Shown piece by piece: positions 1 through 44,300 of a stretch of 64,000 bases of DNA. Made by a program: the position numbers. The DNA is from Pocillopora damicornis. Taxonomy: Eukaryota. Positions within the stretch are counted from its first letter, which is position 1, and each line of letters starts with the position of its first letter. The stretch is taken from positions 62,001-126,000 of the forward strand of contig NW_020847034.1 of assembly GCF_003704095.1 (NCBI RefSeq). The letters are read 5' to 3'.

Positions 1-3000
1 CATTGTCCATGGTTTTAAGTTGCAGATTTTTCCATCTGTTTTCCAGAGTATTTATCTCTGTTTCGTAGCTTTCAGCTCTTTCAGGATCTACGATCCTTTC
101 GGTCAGCAGCCTATCGCTGATTCCTATTGCGTTCTTGAACGTCGGCTCAAATGAAGAAATTTCTTCCTTCAACTCCTGTTCAAAAAAATAACCAAATAGG
201 TAATAAAAAAGCAATCAACGGAAAGATAGACAAATCGCGAAAATTTTAATCTAAAATATCAACCTTCCAACCGGACGAGAATGGACGATAACCTATCACG
301 ATAAAAAGAAAATGATACCGAATGTTGCGAGGTAAACAAGACACTCAAATAAGTAGAAAGTCATACCCTGTGCCTGCCATACTCTTCCATGACTGAACCA
401 ATGTCATCCTCATTCACAACTATAGAATCTGCTTGTTTCTCAGCATCACTCAGCCAATCATAGACCTCTTCCATTAATTCTTCATGACGAACTATCAGCG
501 CTTGATTTAACCTACAAAACCAGGTGAATAAAAGTTATCAACTGCGCAAGTATTTACTTCAAATTACGGCATACTCCCGGCGTTTCCCGTCACTTAGTTA
601 GTTAGCCGATCAGTCGGTCTTTTAGTCAGGCAGTCAATCATAGTCAGCCGATGGGTCCATATGTCGCTCAGTGGACTTTTGTTCCATATTATGTGCCGAA
701 ATCTCAAACGCAGAAAATCGGCTTACTTTTCATGATTGGCATCATGGTTTTTGTTCAGTTCTGCCCACTTCTCATCAAGTGCTCCTATTCTTCTCTGGAT
801 TCTCACTCGGTCTTCATCTCTGAGTAAATCTGTTTCCTTACAGTTCACAAACTGGTCTTTGATGTCATTAAATTTTGCTTCTTCTTTATCTAGGTCGTTT
901 TCAAATTCCTTTTAAGATGAAGAATAACACACTGGTAAGCGTTTCAAAATGACTATTTAGAACCCTGAAAAGAACGATCGAGCGAACGAGCGAACGAGCA
1001 CACGAGCGCTCAACCGAAGGAACGGACGAGGGAAAGAGCGAATGAGCGAACAAGTGAATAATCGAACACAATTGAGCAAACAAAGTAAAAAACGAACTGT
1101 TGAACGAATGAGCGAACAAATGAGCAAGAGAGCCAAAAGAAGAAACGAACATTTGAGCCAGACAGTTCTTCAGGACAGAAAACATGTTTGCGAAATGGCA
1201 GGTGATGCACTCTTTAAACTTTTCTATAACTTAGAGATATCGCATGTCATGGCTTTCACGTTCATGAAGTCTCACCTGCAACTCTTCCAACTGTTTTCCG
1301 ACCTCCTCGATATCAGAGCCAATATCAGTAAAATTGTTCACGGACTCCTCTTCAAGTCTCTCGACGGCTTCTTCACAATCGGCCAATGAGCGGCCAAAGT
1401 ACTTCAAAGAGGCTTCTTTTATCCTGTTCAATACATTTGATTAAATCACATTCGGTTAACGAATAAATGGATACACAAACTCTGTCTTCATTATAAAATA
1501 ACGAATGAAACACGAAAGGAAATTGTGCCACAGAAATAAAATTTCTCCGATGCAGTTTCAAAACTACCAACGCACTAGATCCAAAAATACCAATAACGCA
1601 TTCTAAAGGCACTCATTCTCAGTCTTTTTGGATAAGACTGAGAATGAAACTTTTATCTGTAGTAAGTGAGCTTTAAATCCCAGATGTAATCGAGTGCTGT
1701 AACCTCTACTTAGTGTAACAGGTATCCCACAGGCGATTAGAATACAAAAAACTTAGTGGTAGGGTTCTATCTTAAATACTTGGAGAAGCATTATGTAGGA
1801 GCCAAAGGGAGGCATTTTAAACAAGATTTTGGGGGTTCCAGGACTCATAGTTTCCTTACTTGTCCCTTTTCTCTCTTGTTCCTTTTTCAAGCTCAGAAAC
1901 TTGTCTGTTAAGTTCGTCTATTTTCTTTCCTATCTCATGTTTGTCGTCGGGCTGTGTCTCCTCCTTTTCGATGACATGATGACCATCATTCGTTACTTCA
2001 AGCAGCTCCCTACTGAGGTCCTCGTTGAGCGAATTTTCGACTTCCTATTAAAAAGATGAAGACCAAATTTTCATCTCTGTACAGATTTTTTCGAACTGAG
2101 CGATGAAAGATAGCTTTCCTTTAATATGGTCACTGTCTTTGCTTGACCGTTACAATGACTACGGAAACTTCATTCTATTCTAAAAAAATGACGATTAGCG
2201 CTGGATCTCATCTCTGACGTGAATCGTTGCGATCTACAATCTCTAATCTTCGCGACACCTCTAATCTATGGAGGCAATAGTCTGCTTTGAAAGTAATATA
2301 AATCCTCGAGTTAGCACCTCCCCGCGAAAACGCCCCTCTTCGAATAGATGTGCCTTTAATTGGCAGAGATGTTTAATGCACAAAATGGCGCGCGTGTGAT
2401 CGAACCTTTTTCAATGCAGTTTTAGTTTTGCACATGTGTACCTTTCTTGAGTGAAAGACTGGCAAATTGCTTCAAGTGAAGACTTGTTTGGCAGATAGAA
2501 TGAAAAATAATTGATAAATGTCAGTGCTCGTATTAAAAAGTATTTTACCCACCTGGAGTTGCACTGCACTTTCTTGAATATCTTTAAAATCTGTATCGTC
2601 AACATCATCATCAATTTTCCTTTTAGCTTCCGTAACAAGCAAACCAAGAGCTATCGATTGCTCTCTCCATCGGCCAAGCCTGCCATCTGAATCCTTCTTT
2701 AGTATGTCCAGGAGAGCAGAGTCTAGCCTATATTGCATAAAGTAAGAAAATTGCTGAGAGGGTTAAACGCCCACAATTAAAGAATCCTAAGACGAGGGAT
2801 AGCATCTAAATGCCTAAAAGATATGGGTAAGGGAGAGAGGATATAATGAATGCACCATGCGTCAGCCGATGAAAGGCACGGTGCTGGTTTCAAGTATCAA
2901 CTCACAAGTTAAAGTTTTTTTAAGGATTGTACTTAATATAGGAAAGAACACCGAATACTAATCTTAGTCCCCGAATTATTGGTGATCAGGTGATCTTCAA

Positions 3001-41300: not shown

Positions 41301-44300
41301 AATGTCCATAATAATTCCTCATGCATGACGTACTTACGATGCTTAGACTCCTTACTGACCGGCGATTATCGACTGTTGCAGGCTCAAATATTCGCTGCAC
41401 AATCAGTTACTTGAAAACTTTTGCGATCAATTATTGATATAAACAAACGAAAATTAAAAACAGCATGATTAATAGCAATTTAAGTTTCATTAAGGACTGT
41501 AATTTTAATTGTCTAACGGGTATGGGAGGAGACAATCAAAGAGTCGAGATTCTTATGGCTGCTGGTCAATAATTCATATTTAACGTTTAGTAAGAGTGTT
41601 CGATAAAAGAAGTCAAATTTCGCATATTTGAGACACAGAGAGCAAAGTTTCTTGGAAAAATATTTGGCCCAGAGAAGAATATTTTGTATTTGTGTGTACT
41701 ACCGAGTATTTCTTTGAAAAATAGGGACTGAAGGTCTTGCAGAGCTTAAATTACAGGAGAAAACTCGTCAAGTCGTTTTTATAATCGACGCATTTTAATA
41801 AGTAAATGGAGGCCCCCAAAATGGAAAAAAGCTAGAAGAATCGACACTCTTTTATTTCTTTTGTTTTGTTTTGCTTTGTTTTTCCGCAGAAAAGCGTTTC
41901 GATGAATAACCTCGTCTTCCGAACTGAACACGGACACAAAATGTGTTTTTTTTTTGAGTGGGGCAAAATCGCAACTTTTTTAAATCAAGAGGCGATACTC
42001 GTCTGAAACCACAGAAGTCAATATCATCCTGTTCAAAACTTAAAAAGTAGTTCTCGTGTTGAGTGTATTTTCTACACTAGTTAAACCTTGCCCGAGGGTT
42101 TAAAGGCATCAAAGTAATTTTCATCAAGTGCCATGTTTTAAAATACAGTTTTGTTGTTCTGCATGTTTACCAGGTAAAACATTTAACAGAGCATACTGTC
42201 TCCAAATCTGTTTTTATAACTTAATCACTTGTTTATTTACACAAATGTGGTACAATCGGTACATCTTTCTGGAAAATTGAATACGTCACCGCTGTCATCC
42301 GAAATATTTGTTTTTATTTTTTTCTCAGAGGGTACGATAACAAATCCTGAAATCTGATTGGTTCTTAGTACGGTCCGTCTATTCCTATCTCTGCCCGCGG
42401 GCAGGGTAACATTTCAGTGAGTCGCCGAGTACATCCCACCTTCGTCACCAATTTTCATAAATTTATCTCGTTTTTCCGGCTGGGCAGTATTTTTAGACAA
42501 AGACGTCGTTCACTACCTCGAGCCGATAAATAACTTATTAAACATCTCTTTCACCTCCTTCATATCACTTTGGTTGACAGAAAATAACATATATTTAAGT
42601 ACATCAACACAGACTTGGATTACTTGACGATGATACACAATTCTAACTTTTGCTACCAATTTTGTTATTCATATTTTTGCAAAAATAAAAGCTTTTGAGG
42701 TTGAGAAATAAAAACATTTTCGTGAAGATTGTCAGTTGGAAAACACCGTAAGGTGGCCGAATCATCTCGAAAACAGCTGAATAAGGGTTGTCTGGCTAAG
42801 AAATGTTACTTGAAGGTCAAATTTCCCTTTTAAAATAAGATCTGTGTCTGAAAGCGCCAAGAGTTTGCAAGGAAACCATTCAGTTGTCTCCAGGGAGTCA
42901 AAATATGAAAACAACTGATTCGATAAGATAAAGAACCCTTTTGAGCTGGCATCACCGAGCAACTGTCACCGCCAACTCTGTTTCGTCATCAGTGAAGAAC
43001 GAGAAGCATTTAAATTCGAAACAAGGAAATGTTAACAATTGATTTACTTGAGAGAATGCAGCAAGCAGGAGATAATTCTCAACGTGTTGCTCTTTCAAGG
43101 AAAAGTGTACATAGCATAAAAATTATCAAGTTTCGATGATCTTCTCTTCAATTTCCAAGGGAACATTGCTGACAAGGCACTTAACACTTGGTGCTTCAGA
43201 ACACTACAATTAATTTACCAACAAAACTATGTAAATTATTTCACAATCTGCGACTTTTACGATTGTTAGTTAATACCACAGGGGAAATCTCGGTTCGAAC
43301 GATTCATAATCGAACTATCGATCAGAAGTAGCCGACGCCTTGAAGCTACGGCCTAATAAAGTTAATTTCATATCTAGACGTTTGACCTTACAAGAGTTGA
43401 CGACAAATGACAAAATTTGGACCAAACACGAATTAATATCGTGTACATAAGAAAAACATTCCGATAGGAGCTGCAGTAACTCTTACTTTAAAAAGCTCCA
43501 CAGCAGTTTACTCGCTCGTTAGGCAGATAAATTTGGGGTACCGCATATGAAACAGCATTCAAATGAAACATGCATACAAATGTTTGTTCAATTATTTAAA
43601 GGCGCAATCAGCGAACACGTAACAACATTTTAAACGGCACAGCTTTAAATACCTGTCCGCTCTCGAATGGTTTGCGTGAAGATAGCTGACTCTCGGGTTT
43701 CGCTTTGCCTCCGAAGCGACTCGTTCGCCGCCATCTTTGCGAAGTCCTCGTCAAGAGTGGAATTTTGCAGTATCCAAAATTATAGAAACCTGCCTGCAAA
43801 GTCTATTGATCAGCGCAGCTCTCTTCACAGGTTACGCGTGGATTCCTCGAATACTAGTAATATGTAAATTTTGCATTTGAAAGGCGCCCTACGAGTTTAG
43901 CAAATATGTTTGAATAACAAAAGCGTTAAAACAAAAATAAACAAAAGAAAATCAAAGGCGGGAAACGCGTCACTAAACAAGGACAAATAACAAATTCCCA
44001 AACGTCTTGGACACGTCATCTTTGAATGTCATTGAGCAACCTGGAATGCAATCAAAGTCAATTGTGCTGATTAAAACCTGAAATAGAAAGATACTCAAAA
44101 TGTGACATACTTATGGGCGCGTTGCTTCATTTCGATGTCGAGCATTTAAATTAGGTTAACACTCAAAGTTTGCGTTGTGTGACAAACATCACGCAATCTC
44201 ACACAGGTTGCATTAAATGACAGTTCGAAACCGACGTTCTCGATGAAAACAAGAAAACACACCGGAGACTTCCTTTACATTTCGCAACAAATGGCCGAAA

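What the first reader, a model, noticed from the sequence alone, without database searches (positions are those of the whole stretch)
1..43734. Over-sized dystrophin-like protein: ~3,700 aa and ~26 repeats with no C-terminal domain yet in view
Seen: my summed exons give ~11.1 kb of CDS and about 26 repeat units, and the gene still runs off the window within a repeat exon. Known: human Dp427 is 3,685 aa in total, with 24 repeats followed by WW-EF-ZZ. Inference: this is either a lineage-specific giant dystrophin or a distinct CH-CH/spectrin-repeat protein with a dystrophin-type head and another tail.
[Added by the scan's program, not by the reader: the finding's places include an assembly gap (unread letters, written N; its length is only estimated) at 17738 to 17837, 19562 to 19661. 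Whether the letters on both sides are continuous or in frame is not known: test that first.]
Basis: partly seen in the sequence, partly recalled or inferred. Interest (0 to 1): 0.7.

Follow-up and report, generated by a model that had tools for sequence, protein, structure and literature searches.

The report
Coral dystrophin-related giant with lipid-anchor-like tail
This is most of a stony-coral gene for a roughly 4,200-residue actin-binding spectrin-repeat protein whose head is dystrophin-like but which ends in a short conserved two-cysteine tail where dystrophin has its dystroglycan-binding domains.

Summary
The minus strand from 43737 to 1 carries 65 exons with canonical splice sites. They total 10,870 nt (3,623 codons): a tandem CH head, 26 visible spectrin-type repeats, a 220-residue ER/K helix and two linkers. 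The last exon is cut by the window edge.

The 1.7-kb piece between the two N gaps is inverted, and its three exons lie on the plus strand. One repeat (R13) is missing next to the gap at 17738-17837. Reading-frame phase is compatible across both gaps.

Full-length orthologues (Acropora 4,189 aa, Montipora 4,190 aa, Nematostella 5,568 aa) have only CH and spectrin domains. They show no WW, EF-hand, ZZ, KASH, GAS2, plakin or PH domain. They end about 456 residues beyond the window in a conserved tail, ...GYPQ..NECC[FM].R.[ML]....

In a CH-CH tree this group is sister to the canonical dystrophins, and plakins and beta-spectrins lie outside.

Membrane anchoring by the tail is inferred and was not tested. 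Databases auto-name the gene "dystrophin-like". I found no description of this architecture in print.

The parts
43653..43737 (-). Exon 1, with the ATG at 43737-43735. It encodes MAANESLRRQSETRESAIFTQTIRERTG and is followed by a GT donor.
   Evidence: tblastn to P0003 residues 3-25, 78% identity. ATG, upstream in-frame stop and donor read directly. Exon table.
36235..38386 (-). Exons 2-5 (38386-38325, 37958-37863, 37188-37111, 36327-36235): first calponin-homology domain (CH1).
   Evidence: 72-91% identical to P0003/P0004 residues 25-135. Pfam CH is weak on a single exon (E 0.13). The orthologues score CH 128-132 bits with 2 stretches.
32485..35684 (-). Exons 6-9 (35684-35584, 35246-35163, 34518-34403, 32597-32485): CH1-CH2 linker and second CH domain (CH2).
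   Evidence: 79-96% identical to P0003/P0004 residues 135-271. Pfam CH E 0.028 on exon 8 alone.
29954..31759 (-). Exons 10-13: spectrin-type repeats R1 and R2.
   Evidence: tblastn. Pfam Spectrin 25.9 bits on ORF 31111-31353. Repeat coordinates from my own profile.
28738..29403 (-). Exons 14-15: a non-repeat, acidic and Ser-rich hinge of about 70 residues between R2 and R3.
   Evidence: Matches orthologue residues 488-560. No repeat-profile match there. No Pfam family.
19779..28426 (-). Exons 16-32: repeats R3-R10 and the first half of R11. Exon lengths alternate regularly between ~175 and ~182 nt.
   Evidence: R7, R9 and R10 (and R8) are 31-45% identical to one another, against a median of 19%.
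19562..19661 (.). Assembly gap (100 N) inside the intron between exons 32 and 33.
   Evidence: Flanks are intronic.
17838..19561 (+). Contig placed in inverted orientation. It carries exons 33-35 on the plus strand (18075-18256, 18735-18909, 19148-19329): the second half of R11, and R12.
   Evidence: Pfam Spectrin 30.4 bits on 19109-19330:+. AG/GT sites on the plus strand.
17738..17837 (.). Assembly gap (100 N) in the place where repeat R13 (orthologue residues ~1751-1867, about two exons) is expected.
   Evidence: No tblastn match for those residues anywhere in the window. Exon 35 to exon 36 is phase-compatible.
12661..17630 (-). Exons 36-47: repeats R14-R19.
   Evidence: 50-85% identical to P0003 residues 1868-2589.
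11463..12123 (-). Exon 48 (661 nt): an ER/K-rich segment of 220 residues, predicted to be a single alpha-helix spacer.
   Evidence: 83% E+R+K; no P, G, S, T or aromatic residues; 78-79 of 217 i/i+4 opposite-charge pairs. AlphaFold2 gives one helix over residues 2-219, pLDDT 89.9, single sequence. Conserved at the same place in Acropora and Montipora (~230 aa) and, shorter, in Nematostella.
10137..10336 (-). Exon 49: acidic, proline-containing linker and the start of R20.
   Evidence: 46% identical to P0004 residues 2804-2865. Splice sites read.
10483..11270 (.). Tandem repeat of ~300 bp in intron 48, with partial copies of the acceptor and 5' part of exon 49.
   Evidence: the repeat finder families D1-D3, 90-94% identity. 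Repeated ORFs. It is unknown whether any copy is spliced in.
6017..9742 (-). Exons 50-57: repeats R20-R23 (R22 is short).
5067..5140 (-). Alternative first exon with its own ATG, in the 1.86-kb intron 57 (MDTGDDYFEKSLALAFETVDLMQS..). It would start a short isoform of about 936 aa that lacks the head.
   Evidence: 68% identical to the N-terminus of Orbicella 'dystonin-like isoform X2', P0002. An in-frame stop lies upstream. GT donor, phase 2, the same phase as the constitutive entry into exon 58.
1..4156 (-). Exons 58-65: repeats R24-R27. Exon 65 is cut by the window edge.
   Evidence: 95-98% identical to P0001 in most exons. Collinear with P0003 up to residue 3734.

Best explanation
The window holds the first ~3,620 codons of one gene for a giant cytoskeletal linker of about 4,200 residues. 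It belongs to a family that I call here the CC-tailed dystrophin-related proteins. The family is present in stony corals and sea anemones, with more distant tail-bearing relatives of unknown origin.

Shown here:
- A dystrophin-type tandem CH actin-binding head.
- A rod of 31 spectrin-type repeats in acroporids, each encoded by a ~175-nt plus ~182-nt exon pair.
- A short hinge after R2.
- A conserved ER/K single-helix segment and acidic linker between R19 and R20.
- A C-terminus, outside the window, that is only ~23 residues long after the last repeat. It holds an invariant Cys-Cys followed by hydrophobic and basic residues.
- No dystroglycan-binding WW-EF-ZZ module, no KASH, no GAS2 or plakin domain and no PH domain.
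- An internal ATG first exon that would give an ~936-aa isoform with 8 repeats and the tail but no head.

Inferred:
- The head binds F-actin.
- The rod plus ER/K helix acts as a long elastic spacer. From recalled dimensions of ~5 nm per repeat and 0.15 nm per helical residue, it would span roughly 190 nm.
- The Cys-Cys/basic tail attaches the far end to a membrane, most likely by S-acylation helped by the basic and hydrophobic residues. The protein would then tether actin to a membrane as dystrophin does, but without dystroglycan.

I lean towards an old paralogue of canonical dystrophin over the cnidarian orthologue, but this is open.
For: One gene, its anatomy and frame.

Orthologues with only CH and Spectrin domains: Pfam on P0003 and P0004, and precomputed lists for P0033 and P0034. 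Pfam on P0001 and P0002 shows Spectrin only. KASH is detected in 2 of 2 nesprin-like controls (62-66 bits) and not in the 4 coral proteins scanned.

Tail: shared by Orbicella, Montipora, Acropora, Nematostella and P0001. Cys-Cys is present in 15 of 16 aligned tails, with net charge +3 to +4. The motif occurs in 4 of 5 rows of the anthozoan+P0153 head clade and 0 of 42 other rows of the tree.

Head tree: the anthozoan clade has support 100/99 and is sister to bilaterian dystrophin/utrophin at 98/94 (31 rows). With 47 rows, P0153 (CH-CH plus repeats plus CC tail, Pfam) joins the anthozoans at 100/98, and the joint clade with dystrophins has 100/98. Plakins and beta-spectrins lie outside.

Repeat counts: 31, 31 and 40, against 24 and 24 in the dystrophin controls.

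ER/K helix.

Alternative first exon.

A true spectraplakin exists separately in the stony coral Stylophora (PMC9145010, passages read).
Against: - No nesprin, calmin or alpha-actinin head could be put in the tree, so 'sister to dystrophin' is tested only against plakins and beta-spectrins.
- Against PDB sequences, vertebrate plectin heads score slightly higher (209-217 bits) than vertebrate dystrophin/utrophin heads alone (188-194 bits). Raw similarity therefore does not single out dystrophin.
- The rod is not collinear with dystrophin's. The best rod match is between the last repeats of the coral protein and dystrophin R1-R3.
- Pfam Spectrin_SYNE1 matches the last repeats (40.1 bits in P0002, above its cut-off of 35; below the cut-off in P0001, P0003 and P0004). 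Language-model look-alikes of the head-less relative P0148 are nesprin-type clusters (a lead only).
- The tail's function is untested. Its helical hydrophobic moment is ordinary (the fraction of each protein's own 14-mers with an equal or higher moment is 0.10-0.68), and its AlphaFold model has low confidence (pLDDT 56.7).
- The tail lies outside the window. For this genome it is known only from P0001, which is 95-98% and not 100% identical.
- P0153 sits on a long branch (1.1).
- The Exaiptasia model P0033 ends mid-rod without the tail.
Confidence: 0.65

Rival explanations
1. It is the cnidarian orthologue of dystrophin itself. In Anthozoa it lost or never had the WW-EF-ZZ module, gained the CC tail and expanded its rod. 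This would be a lineage-specific giant dystrophin in the evolutionary sense.
For: The anthozoan clade sits where a cnidarian orthologue would sit, as sister to all bilaterian dystrophins. No cnidarian protein with a CH head and a dystrophin C-terminus appeared among the 120 listed hits, the 29 hits, or the 6 canonical dystrophins among the 150 representatives. All six of those grouped with bilaterian dystrophins.
Against: A 2023 review says cnidarians already have a complete dystrophin with the dystroglycan-interacting domain (PMC10293626, passages). Adams and Brancaccio say dystrophin is conserved in cnidarians (PMC4582122, passages). Neither passage names a species or accession, and the supplements were closed. 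My searches list only top hits and were not designed to find such a gene. The tail-bearing P0153 branches deeply, which suggests an old family. The rod is not collinear with dystrophin's.
Confidence: 0.22
2. It is a KASH-less nesprin-like protein or a spectraplakin, as the automatic name 'dystonin-like' for the short isoform suggests.
For: NCBI names P0002 'dystonin-like'. MACF1-like proteins give long low-identity rod alignments (21% over 86%). Pfam Spectrin_SYNE1 matches the last repeats. Nesprin-type look-alikes appear for P0148. The ~936-aa, 8-repeat short form is about the size I recall for nesprin-3.
Against: Pfam finds no KASH, GAS2, EF-hand, plakin or SH3 domain, and the KASH model works on controls. 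Heads of 12 plakin/MACF rows form a separate clade at 99/93. Spectrin_SYNE1 is also listed for most canonical dystrophins, so it is not specific to nesprins. A true spectraplakin is reported separately in Stylophora (PMC9145010). Nesprin heads were not available for the tree.
Confidence: 0.07
3. The long model is an artefact: two or more separate genes, or a mis-assembly, read as one.
For: Two assembly gaps, an inverted piece and a missing repeat lie in the middle of the locus. An internal first exon shows that the 3' part can be transcribed on its own. The only near-identical protein in hand (P0001) covers just the last 969 residues.
Against: All 65 exons are collinear with single full-length models in Acropora and Montipora, and the same architecture occurs in Nematostella. 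The exons have canonical splice sites, a uniform phase pattern and no in-frame stop. Both breakpoints of the inversion coincide with gaps, as expected for a small contig oriented wrongly by a scaffolder.
Confidence: 0.05

Closest known systems
Dystrophin / utrophin (DMD, UTRN; invertebrate dystrophins)
   Same: Tandem CH head of the same clade, ~49-53% identical to invertebrate dystrophins. Long spectrin-type rod with a hinge. The first repeat is collinear with dystrophin R1. An internal promoter-type first exon would give a head-less short isoform; the parallel with dystrophin's short isoforms is recalled.
   Different: No WW, EF-hand, ZZ or syntrophin/dystrobrevin-binding coiled coil. 31-40 repeats instead of 24. 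The rod is not collinear. It has an ER/K helix insert, and it ends in a ~23-residue Cys-Cys/basic tail.
Nesprin-1/2 (SYNE1/2, MSP300, ANC-1)
   Same: CH-CH head plus a very long spectrin-repeat rod, then a short C-terminal targeting element. About two exons per repeat (recalled for SYNE1). Weak Spectrin_SYNE1 matches.
   Different: No KASH domain: no transmembrane stretch and no PPPX end. The relationship of the heads could not be tested.
Spectraplakins (MACF1, dystonin, Shot, VAB-10)
   Same: CH-CH head and a long rod. The automatic name is 'dystonin-like'.
   Different: No plakin/SH3 domain and no EF-hand-GAS2 C-terminus. The heads fall in a different clade. Corals have a separate true spectraplakin (PMC9145010).
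Beta-heavy spectrin (karst, SPTBN5)
   Same: CH-CH head, about 30 repeats, about 4,000 aa.
   Different: No SH3 and no PH domain. The heads form the outgroup clade (100/100).
ER/K single alpha-helix (SAH) spacers, as in myosin VI/X and caldesmon (recalled)
   Same: The composition and i/i+4 charge pattern of exon 48. It is predicted as one helix of ~220 residues.
   Different: Here the helix is inserted in the middle of a spectrin-repeat rod. None of the dystrophin, MACF or beta-spectrin comparators checked has such a segment (0 of 5).
Dual-cysteine plus polybasic S-acylation motifs, such as the GAP-43 N-terminus (recalled, not tested)
   Same: Adjacent cysteines next to hydrophobic and basic residues at a protein terminus.
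   Different: Here the motif is C-terminal and is not a CaaX box. Acylation has not been shown.

Membership tests
Dystrophin family (dystrophin/utrophin) | N-terminal tandem CH actin-binding domain of the dystrophin clade | tested here: met
   Tree of CH-CH regions: sister to bilaterian dystrophin/utrophin at 98/94 and 100/98. The orthologues P0003/P0004 stand in for the window gene (window head exons are 72-96% identical). Nesprin and actinin heads were absent from the tree.
Dystrophin family (dystrophin/utrophin) | WW domain after the rod | tested here: not met
   No PF00397 in P0001-P0004 or in the precomputed lists of P0033/P0034. It is listed for most canonical dystrophins in the same table.
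Dystrophin family (dystrophin/utrophin) | Cysteine-rich region (EF-hand 2/3 and ZZ) that binds beta-dystroglycan | tested here: not met
   No PF09068, PF09069 or PF00569. A blastp probe with a dystrophin C-terminus hits 7 of 70 long representatives, and none of them bears the tail.
Dystrophin family (dystrophin/utrophin) | Rod of 24 repeats (22 in utrophin, recalled), collinear among members | tested here: not met
   31 repeats in P0003/P0004 and 40 in P0034, against 24 in P0039 and P0013 with the same profile. No collinear rod alignment.
Nesprins (KASH proteins) | C-terminal KASH domain (transmembrane helix plus a luminal peptide ending in PPPX) | tested here: not met
   No PF10541 in P0001-P0004. 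The same model scores 62-66 bits on controls P0166 and P0219. Only ~15 residues follow the Cys-Cys.
Nesprins (KASH proteins) | CH-CH head of the nesprin clade | not testable with these tools
   No nesprin head sequence was available: none among the stored hits and none in the PDB hits.
Spectraplakins | Plakin domain with SH3, and a C-terminal EF-hand plus GAS2/GAR module | tested here: not met
   Not found by Pfam. The heads fall outside the plakin clade.
Beta / beta-heavy spectrin | C-terminal PH domain (SH3 in the heavy form) and a head of the beta-spectrin clade | tested here: not met
   No PF00169 or SH3. The beta-spectrin heads form a separate clade at 100/100.
Spectrin-repeat superfamily | Tandem ~106-120-residue three-helix repeats | tested here: met
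   Pfam Spectrin 423-429 bits in P0003/P0004. 6 of the 30 window ORFs or exons scanned singly hit Spectrin at E<=0.014, and one is above the cut-off. 31 matches with my own profile.
ER/K single alpha-helix domains | Over 75% E/R/K with dense i/i+4 opposite charges, no helix breakers, predicted as a lone helix | tested here: met
   A stable monomeric helix in solution was not tested.
S-acylated membrane anchors | Cysteines that are acylated and needed for membrane binding | not testable with these tools
   Only the conserved motif is seen.

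The most novel reading that the evidence does not exclude
The CC-tailed proteins are an ancient sister lineage of dystrophin that tethers actin directly to a membrane through an S-acylated tail, with no dystroglycan involved. They would descend from the same CH-plus-rod gene that, according to the 2023 review (PMC10293626, passage), fused with a short WW-EF-ZZ protein to make dystrophin. 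If so, they preserve the pre-fusion state of dystrophin's front half. The dystrophin R1-R3-like repeats next to the tail would be its membrane-proximal end.
Probability: 0.15. Interest if true: 0.75.

Novelty: new variant of a known kind. Interest (0 to 1): 0.5.

Why it matters
Dystrophin is usually defined by its link to dystroglycan. Here a conserved relative in corals and sea anemones keeps dystrophin's actin-binding head and a longer rod, but has replaced the dystroglycan-binding end with a short two-cysteine tail.

If the tail is a lipid anchor, this would be a second, simpler way to tie cortical actin to a membrane. It would also be a natural comparison for which parts of dystrophin are needed for mechanical function.

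It bears on how dystrophin was assembled in early animals as well. Automatic names such as 'dystrophin', 'utrophin-like' and 'dystonin-like' hide the difference, and surveys that count 'dystrophin' in cnidarians by name or by head similarity could be misled.

For this genome specifically, the locus contains a scaffolding error, an inverted 1.7-kb contig and a lost repeat, that would break any automatic gene model.

Tried and rejected
- Exon-by-exon Pfam is weak because each exon holds half a repeat. It supports but cannot classify.
- The listing of cluster members for ten tail-bearing relatives could not be made because the database is switched off. The organisms of P0148, P0150, P0151, P0153 and the others stay unknown.
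- The two atlas searches gave only generic CH/spectrin or nesprin-type look-alikes and no useful taxonomy.
- The idea that the tail is an amphipathic helix was tested and not supported. The tail fold has low confidence.
- Raw PDB scores do not separate dystrophin from plectin heads.
- Candidate divergent heads (P0279, P0264, P0207) could not be identified as nesprins, so no nesprin comparator was found.
- Tandem Repeats Finder did not report the ~300-bp repeat; the repeat finder did.
- Literature: searches found no description of a cnidarian CH-spectrin protein with this tail. PMC1790709 holds none of the four cnidarian terms I asked for.
- No Rfam family or tRNA in the window.
- The joined spliced protein of the window was neither searched nor folded. 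Statements about the full length rest on database orthologues.

Full report
WHAT THE WINDOW IS. The window has 38% G+C, a CpG observed/expected ratio of 0.89, and five runs of N. It is not human. The nearest named proteins come from stony corals. A partial protein with no source, P0001, is 95-98% identical to most of the 3' exons. P0001 is 83% identical to Orbicella and 66-68% identical to Acropora and Montipora over the shared part.

THE OBSERVATION.
An all-against-all comparison of stop-to-stop ORFs showed a family of related ORFs on the minus strand from about 0.7 to 31 kb. Exon-by-exon Pfam scans gave weak CH hits on 2 of 30 window ORFs or exons and Spectrin hits on 6 of 30. One of the Spectrin hits is above the curated cut-off. 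Each exon holds only about half a repeat, which explains the low scores.

One exon (726-911) retrieved P0001 (969 aa) and Orbicella 'dystonin-like isoform X2' (935 aa). P0001 in turn retrieved Montipora 'utrophin-like' (P0003, 4,190 aa) and Acropora 'dystrophin-like X1' (P0004, 4,189 aa). Mapping these onto the window by tblastn and refining boundaries by splice sites gave 65 exons. All have AG acceptors and GT donors. There is no in-frame stop when they are read in order, and they total 10,870 nt or 3,623 codons. Introns have a median length of 372 nt, and the first is 5.3 kb.

The ATG is at 43737. The last exon (175-1) is cut by the window edge at orthologue residue ~3734.

I did not search or fold the joined spliced protein of the window. 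Everything said about the full length rests on the database orthologues.

THE GAPS.
Exons for orthologue residues 1572-1750 lie on the plus strand at 18075-18256, 18735-18909 and 19148-19329. They run in ascending order, exactly between the two gaps, and they have plus-strand AG/GT sites. The exons on either side of the gaps are on the minus strand. Turning the 1,724-bp piece around restores the order, so it is a small contig placed in the wrong orientation. A real inversion whose two ends both fall in assembly gaps is much less likely.

All gap flanks are intronic. Phase is compatible across both gaps: ~182-nt exons always enter at phase 0 and ~175-nt exons at phase 2. Orthologue residues ~1751-1867, which form repeat 13, have no match anywhere in the window. 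They would lie in the gap at 17738-17837, whose length is only nominal. I did not try to fill it.

ANATOMY.
- Exons 1-9 encode the N-terminus and two CH domains.
- The rod follows. A repeat profile built from the orthologues finds 31 repeats in P0003 and P0004, 40 in Nematostella P0034, and 24 in each of two canonical dystrophins used as controls. The window holds R1-R12 and R14-R27.
- Most repeats are encoded by a ~175-nt exon plus a ~182-nt exon. There are 22 exons of exactly 182 nt and 11 of exactly 175 nt.
- R7, R9 and R10 (and R8) are 31-45% identical to each other against a median of 19%. This points to younger internal duplications. They are shared with the acroporids, since the repeat counts agree.
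- A ~70-residue acidic hinge follows R2 (exons 14-15).
- Between R19 and R20 lies exon 48 (12123-11463). It is 83% Glu/Arg/Lys, has no helix breakers, and has 78-79 of 217 possible i/i+4 opposite-charge pairs. AlphaFold2 folds it as one helix over residues 2-219 with pLDDT 89.9, from a single sequence. The same segment is present in Acropora and Montipora and, shorter, in Nematostella. It is absent from the dystrophin, MACF and beta-spectrin comparators (0 of 5 have a window with at least 75% E/R/K).
- An acidic linker (exon 49) follows the ER/K segment.

THE C-TERMINUS.
It lies outside the window. In P0001, Orbicella, Montipora, Acropora and Nematostella, four more repeats follow. The protein then ends ~23 residues after the last repeat with ...GYPQ..NECC[FM].R.[ML]....

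An exhaustive HMMER search with P0001 found 516 representatives at E<=0.001, of which the best 150 were listed. Among them are further proteins ending in Cys-Cys plus hydrophobic and basic residues. They include P0153 (927 aa), which has two CH domains, spectrin repeats and the tail, and head-less proteins of 742-854 aa. Their organisms could not be looked up.

Pfam finds only CH and Spectrin in the coral proteins, plus Spectrin_SYNE1, which also occurs in dystrophins. It finds no WW, EF-hand, ZZ, KASH, GAS2, plakin, SH3 or PH domain. The KASH model does fire on two nesprin-like controls.

CLASSIFICATION.
Searching with the head of P0004 gave, after the acroporids, Exaiptasia and Nematostella 'dystrophin' at 60-62% identity. 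Both list only CH and Spectrin domains. Next come canonical invertebrate dystrophins at ~49%, with plectins close behind.

In a maximum-likelihood tree of CH-CH regions (31 rows; a truncated Daphnia row was dropped), the four anthozoan proteins form a clade (100/99) that is sister to bilaterian dystrophin/utrophin (98/94). In a second tree of 47 rows, the long-branched Scatophagus row was also dropped and 17 representatives were added. There P0153 joins the anthozoans (100/98) and the joint clade with dystrophins has 100/98. Plakins and MACF (99/93) and beta-spectrins (100/100) are outside. The tail motif is found in 4 of 5 rows of that clade and in 0 of 42 other rows. The fifth row, Exaiptasia P0033, ends mid-rod.

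Limits of this classification:
- No nesprin, calmin, alpha-actinin or filamin head was in the tree.
- PDB scores place vertebrate plectin heads slightly above vertebrate dystrophin heads.
- P0153 has a long branch.
- The rod is not collinear with dystrophin's. Apart from the head and first repeat, the best match is between the coral protein's third- and second-last repeats and dystrophin R1-R3, at 27-32% identity.

ORTHOLOGUE OR PARALOGUE.
The tree position fits either reading. A 2023 review states that cnidarians have a complete dystrophin with the dystroglycan-interacting domain, and that dystrophin arose by fusion of a short WW-EF-ZZ protein with a spectrin-type gene (PMC10293626; I read passages only). 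Adams and Brancaccio say dystrophin is conserved in cnidarians (PMC4582122, passages). Neither passage names the species or accession, and the supplements that may do so were closed. I saw no such cnidarian protein, but my searches list only the top hits. I therefore lean towards a paralogue and give the orthologue reading 0.22.

SHORT ISOFORM.
Intron 57 is 1.86 kb, long for this gene. In it, an ATG exon at 5140-5067 encodes a peptide 68% identical to the N-terminus of the Orbicella short isoform. It has an in-frame stop upstream and a GT donor, and it enters exon 58 in the same phase as the constitutive exon. It would give an ~936-aa protein with 8 repeats and the tail but no actin-binding head.

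HOW IT PROBABLY WORKS.
Shown: the architecture described above.
Inferred from what is known of CH-CH domains, spectrin repeats and ER/K helices: the head binds F-actin, and the rod and helix make a long, extensible spacer.
Inferred from the motif alone: the two cysteines are S-acylated and, with the neighbouring hydrophobic and basic residues, hold the C-terminus on a membrane. The protein would then link actin to a membrane without dystroglycan. Two small tests did not add support. The helical hydrophobic moment is ordinary, and the tail fold has low confidence. A protein partner for the tail is equally possible.

LITERATURE AND NOVELTY.
Searches found no paper describing this architecture. 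One paper reports a true spectraplakin in Stylophora (PMC9145010, passages), which argues against the 'dystonin-like' label. The gene is present in public annotation under automatic names, so its existence is not new. What I did not find described is the recognition of a tail-defined, dystroglycan-independent sister group of dystrophin with an ER/K insert.

REST OF THE WINDOW.
Between 48.6 and 61.9 kb, the plus strand carries three tandem copies of an MFS transporter gene. No RNA genes were found in the window.

Noticed in passing
window 48593-61875, + strand: Three tandem copies of a major-facilitator-superfamily transporter gene (Pfam MFS_1 up to 69.6 bits). Their flanks are repeated too (47062-47310, 54385-54735, 63462-63728), and three more N gaps lie among them (54276-54359, 57947-58046, 62039-62138).
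   Followed up: partly
window 10483-11270: A ~300-bp tandem repeat with 3-4 copies at 90-94% identity, in the intron before linker exon 49. The copies carry partial duplicates of that exon's acceptor and first ~58 nt. Whether they are used as exons is unknown. The acroporid orthologues have a single copy of the linker.
   Followed up: partly
window 5067-5140, - strand: A conserved alternative first exon with its own ATG lies inside intron 57. It matches the N-terminus of the Orbicella short isoform and implies an internal promoter.
   Followed up: yes
window 17838-19561: A small contig between two 100-N gaps is in inverted orientation. Automatic gene models of this scaffold would be broken here, and one repeat is lost in the adjoining gap.
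   Followed up: yes
window 11394-12158, both strands: The ER/K exon is so purine-rich on the coding strand that ORFs of 134-255 aa are open in five or six frames over it. Only the minus-strand frame that matches the orthologues is real.
   Followed up: yes
window 20498-24380 (repeats R7-R10): These repeats are much more alike (31-45% identity) than the rest of the rod (median 19%). Nematostella has 40 repeats against 31 in acroporids, with the extra ones aligning to this block. Repeat number in this block seems to vary between lineages.
   Followed up: partly
window 38387-43652: The first intron is 5.3 kb, against a median of 372 nt for the gene. No sizeable ORF was seen in it. It was not examined for further alternative first exons or regulatory elements.
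   Followed up: no
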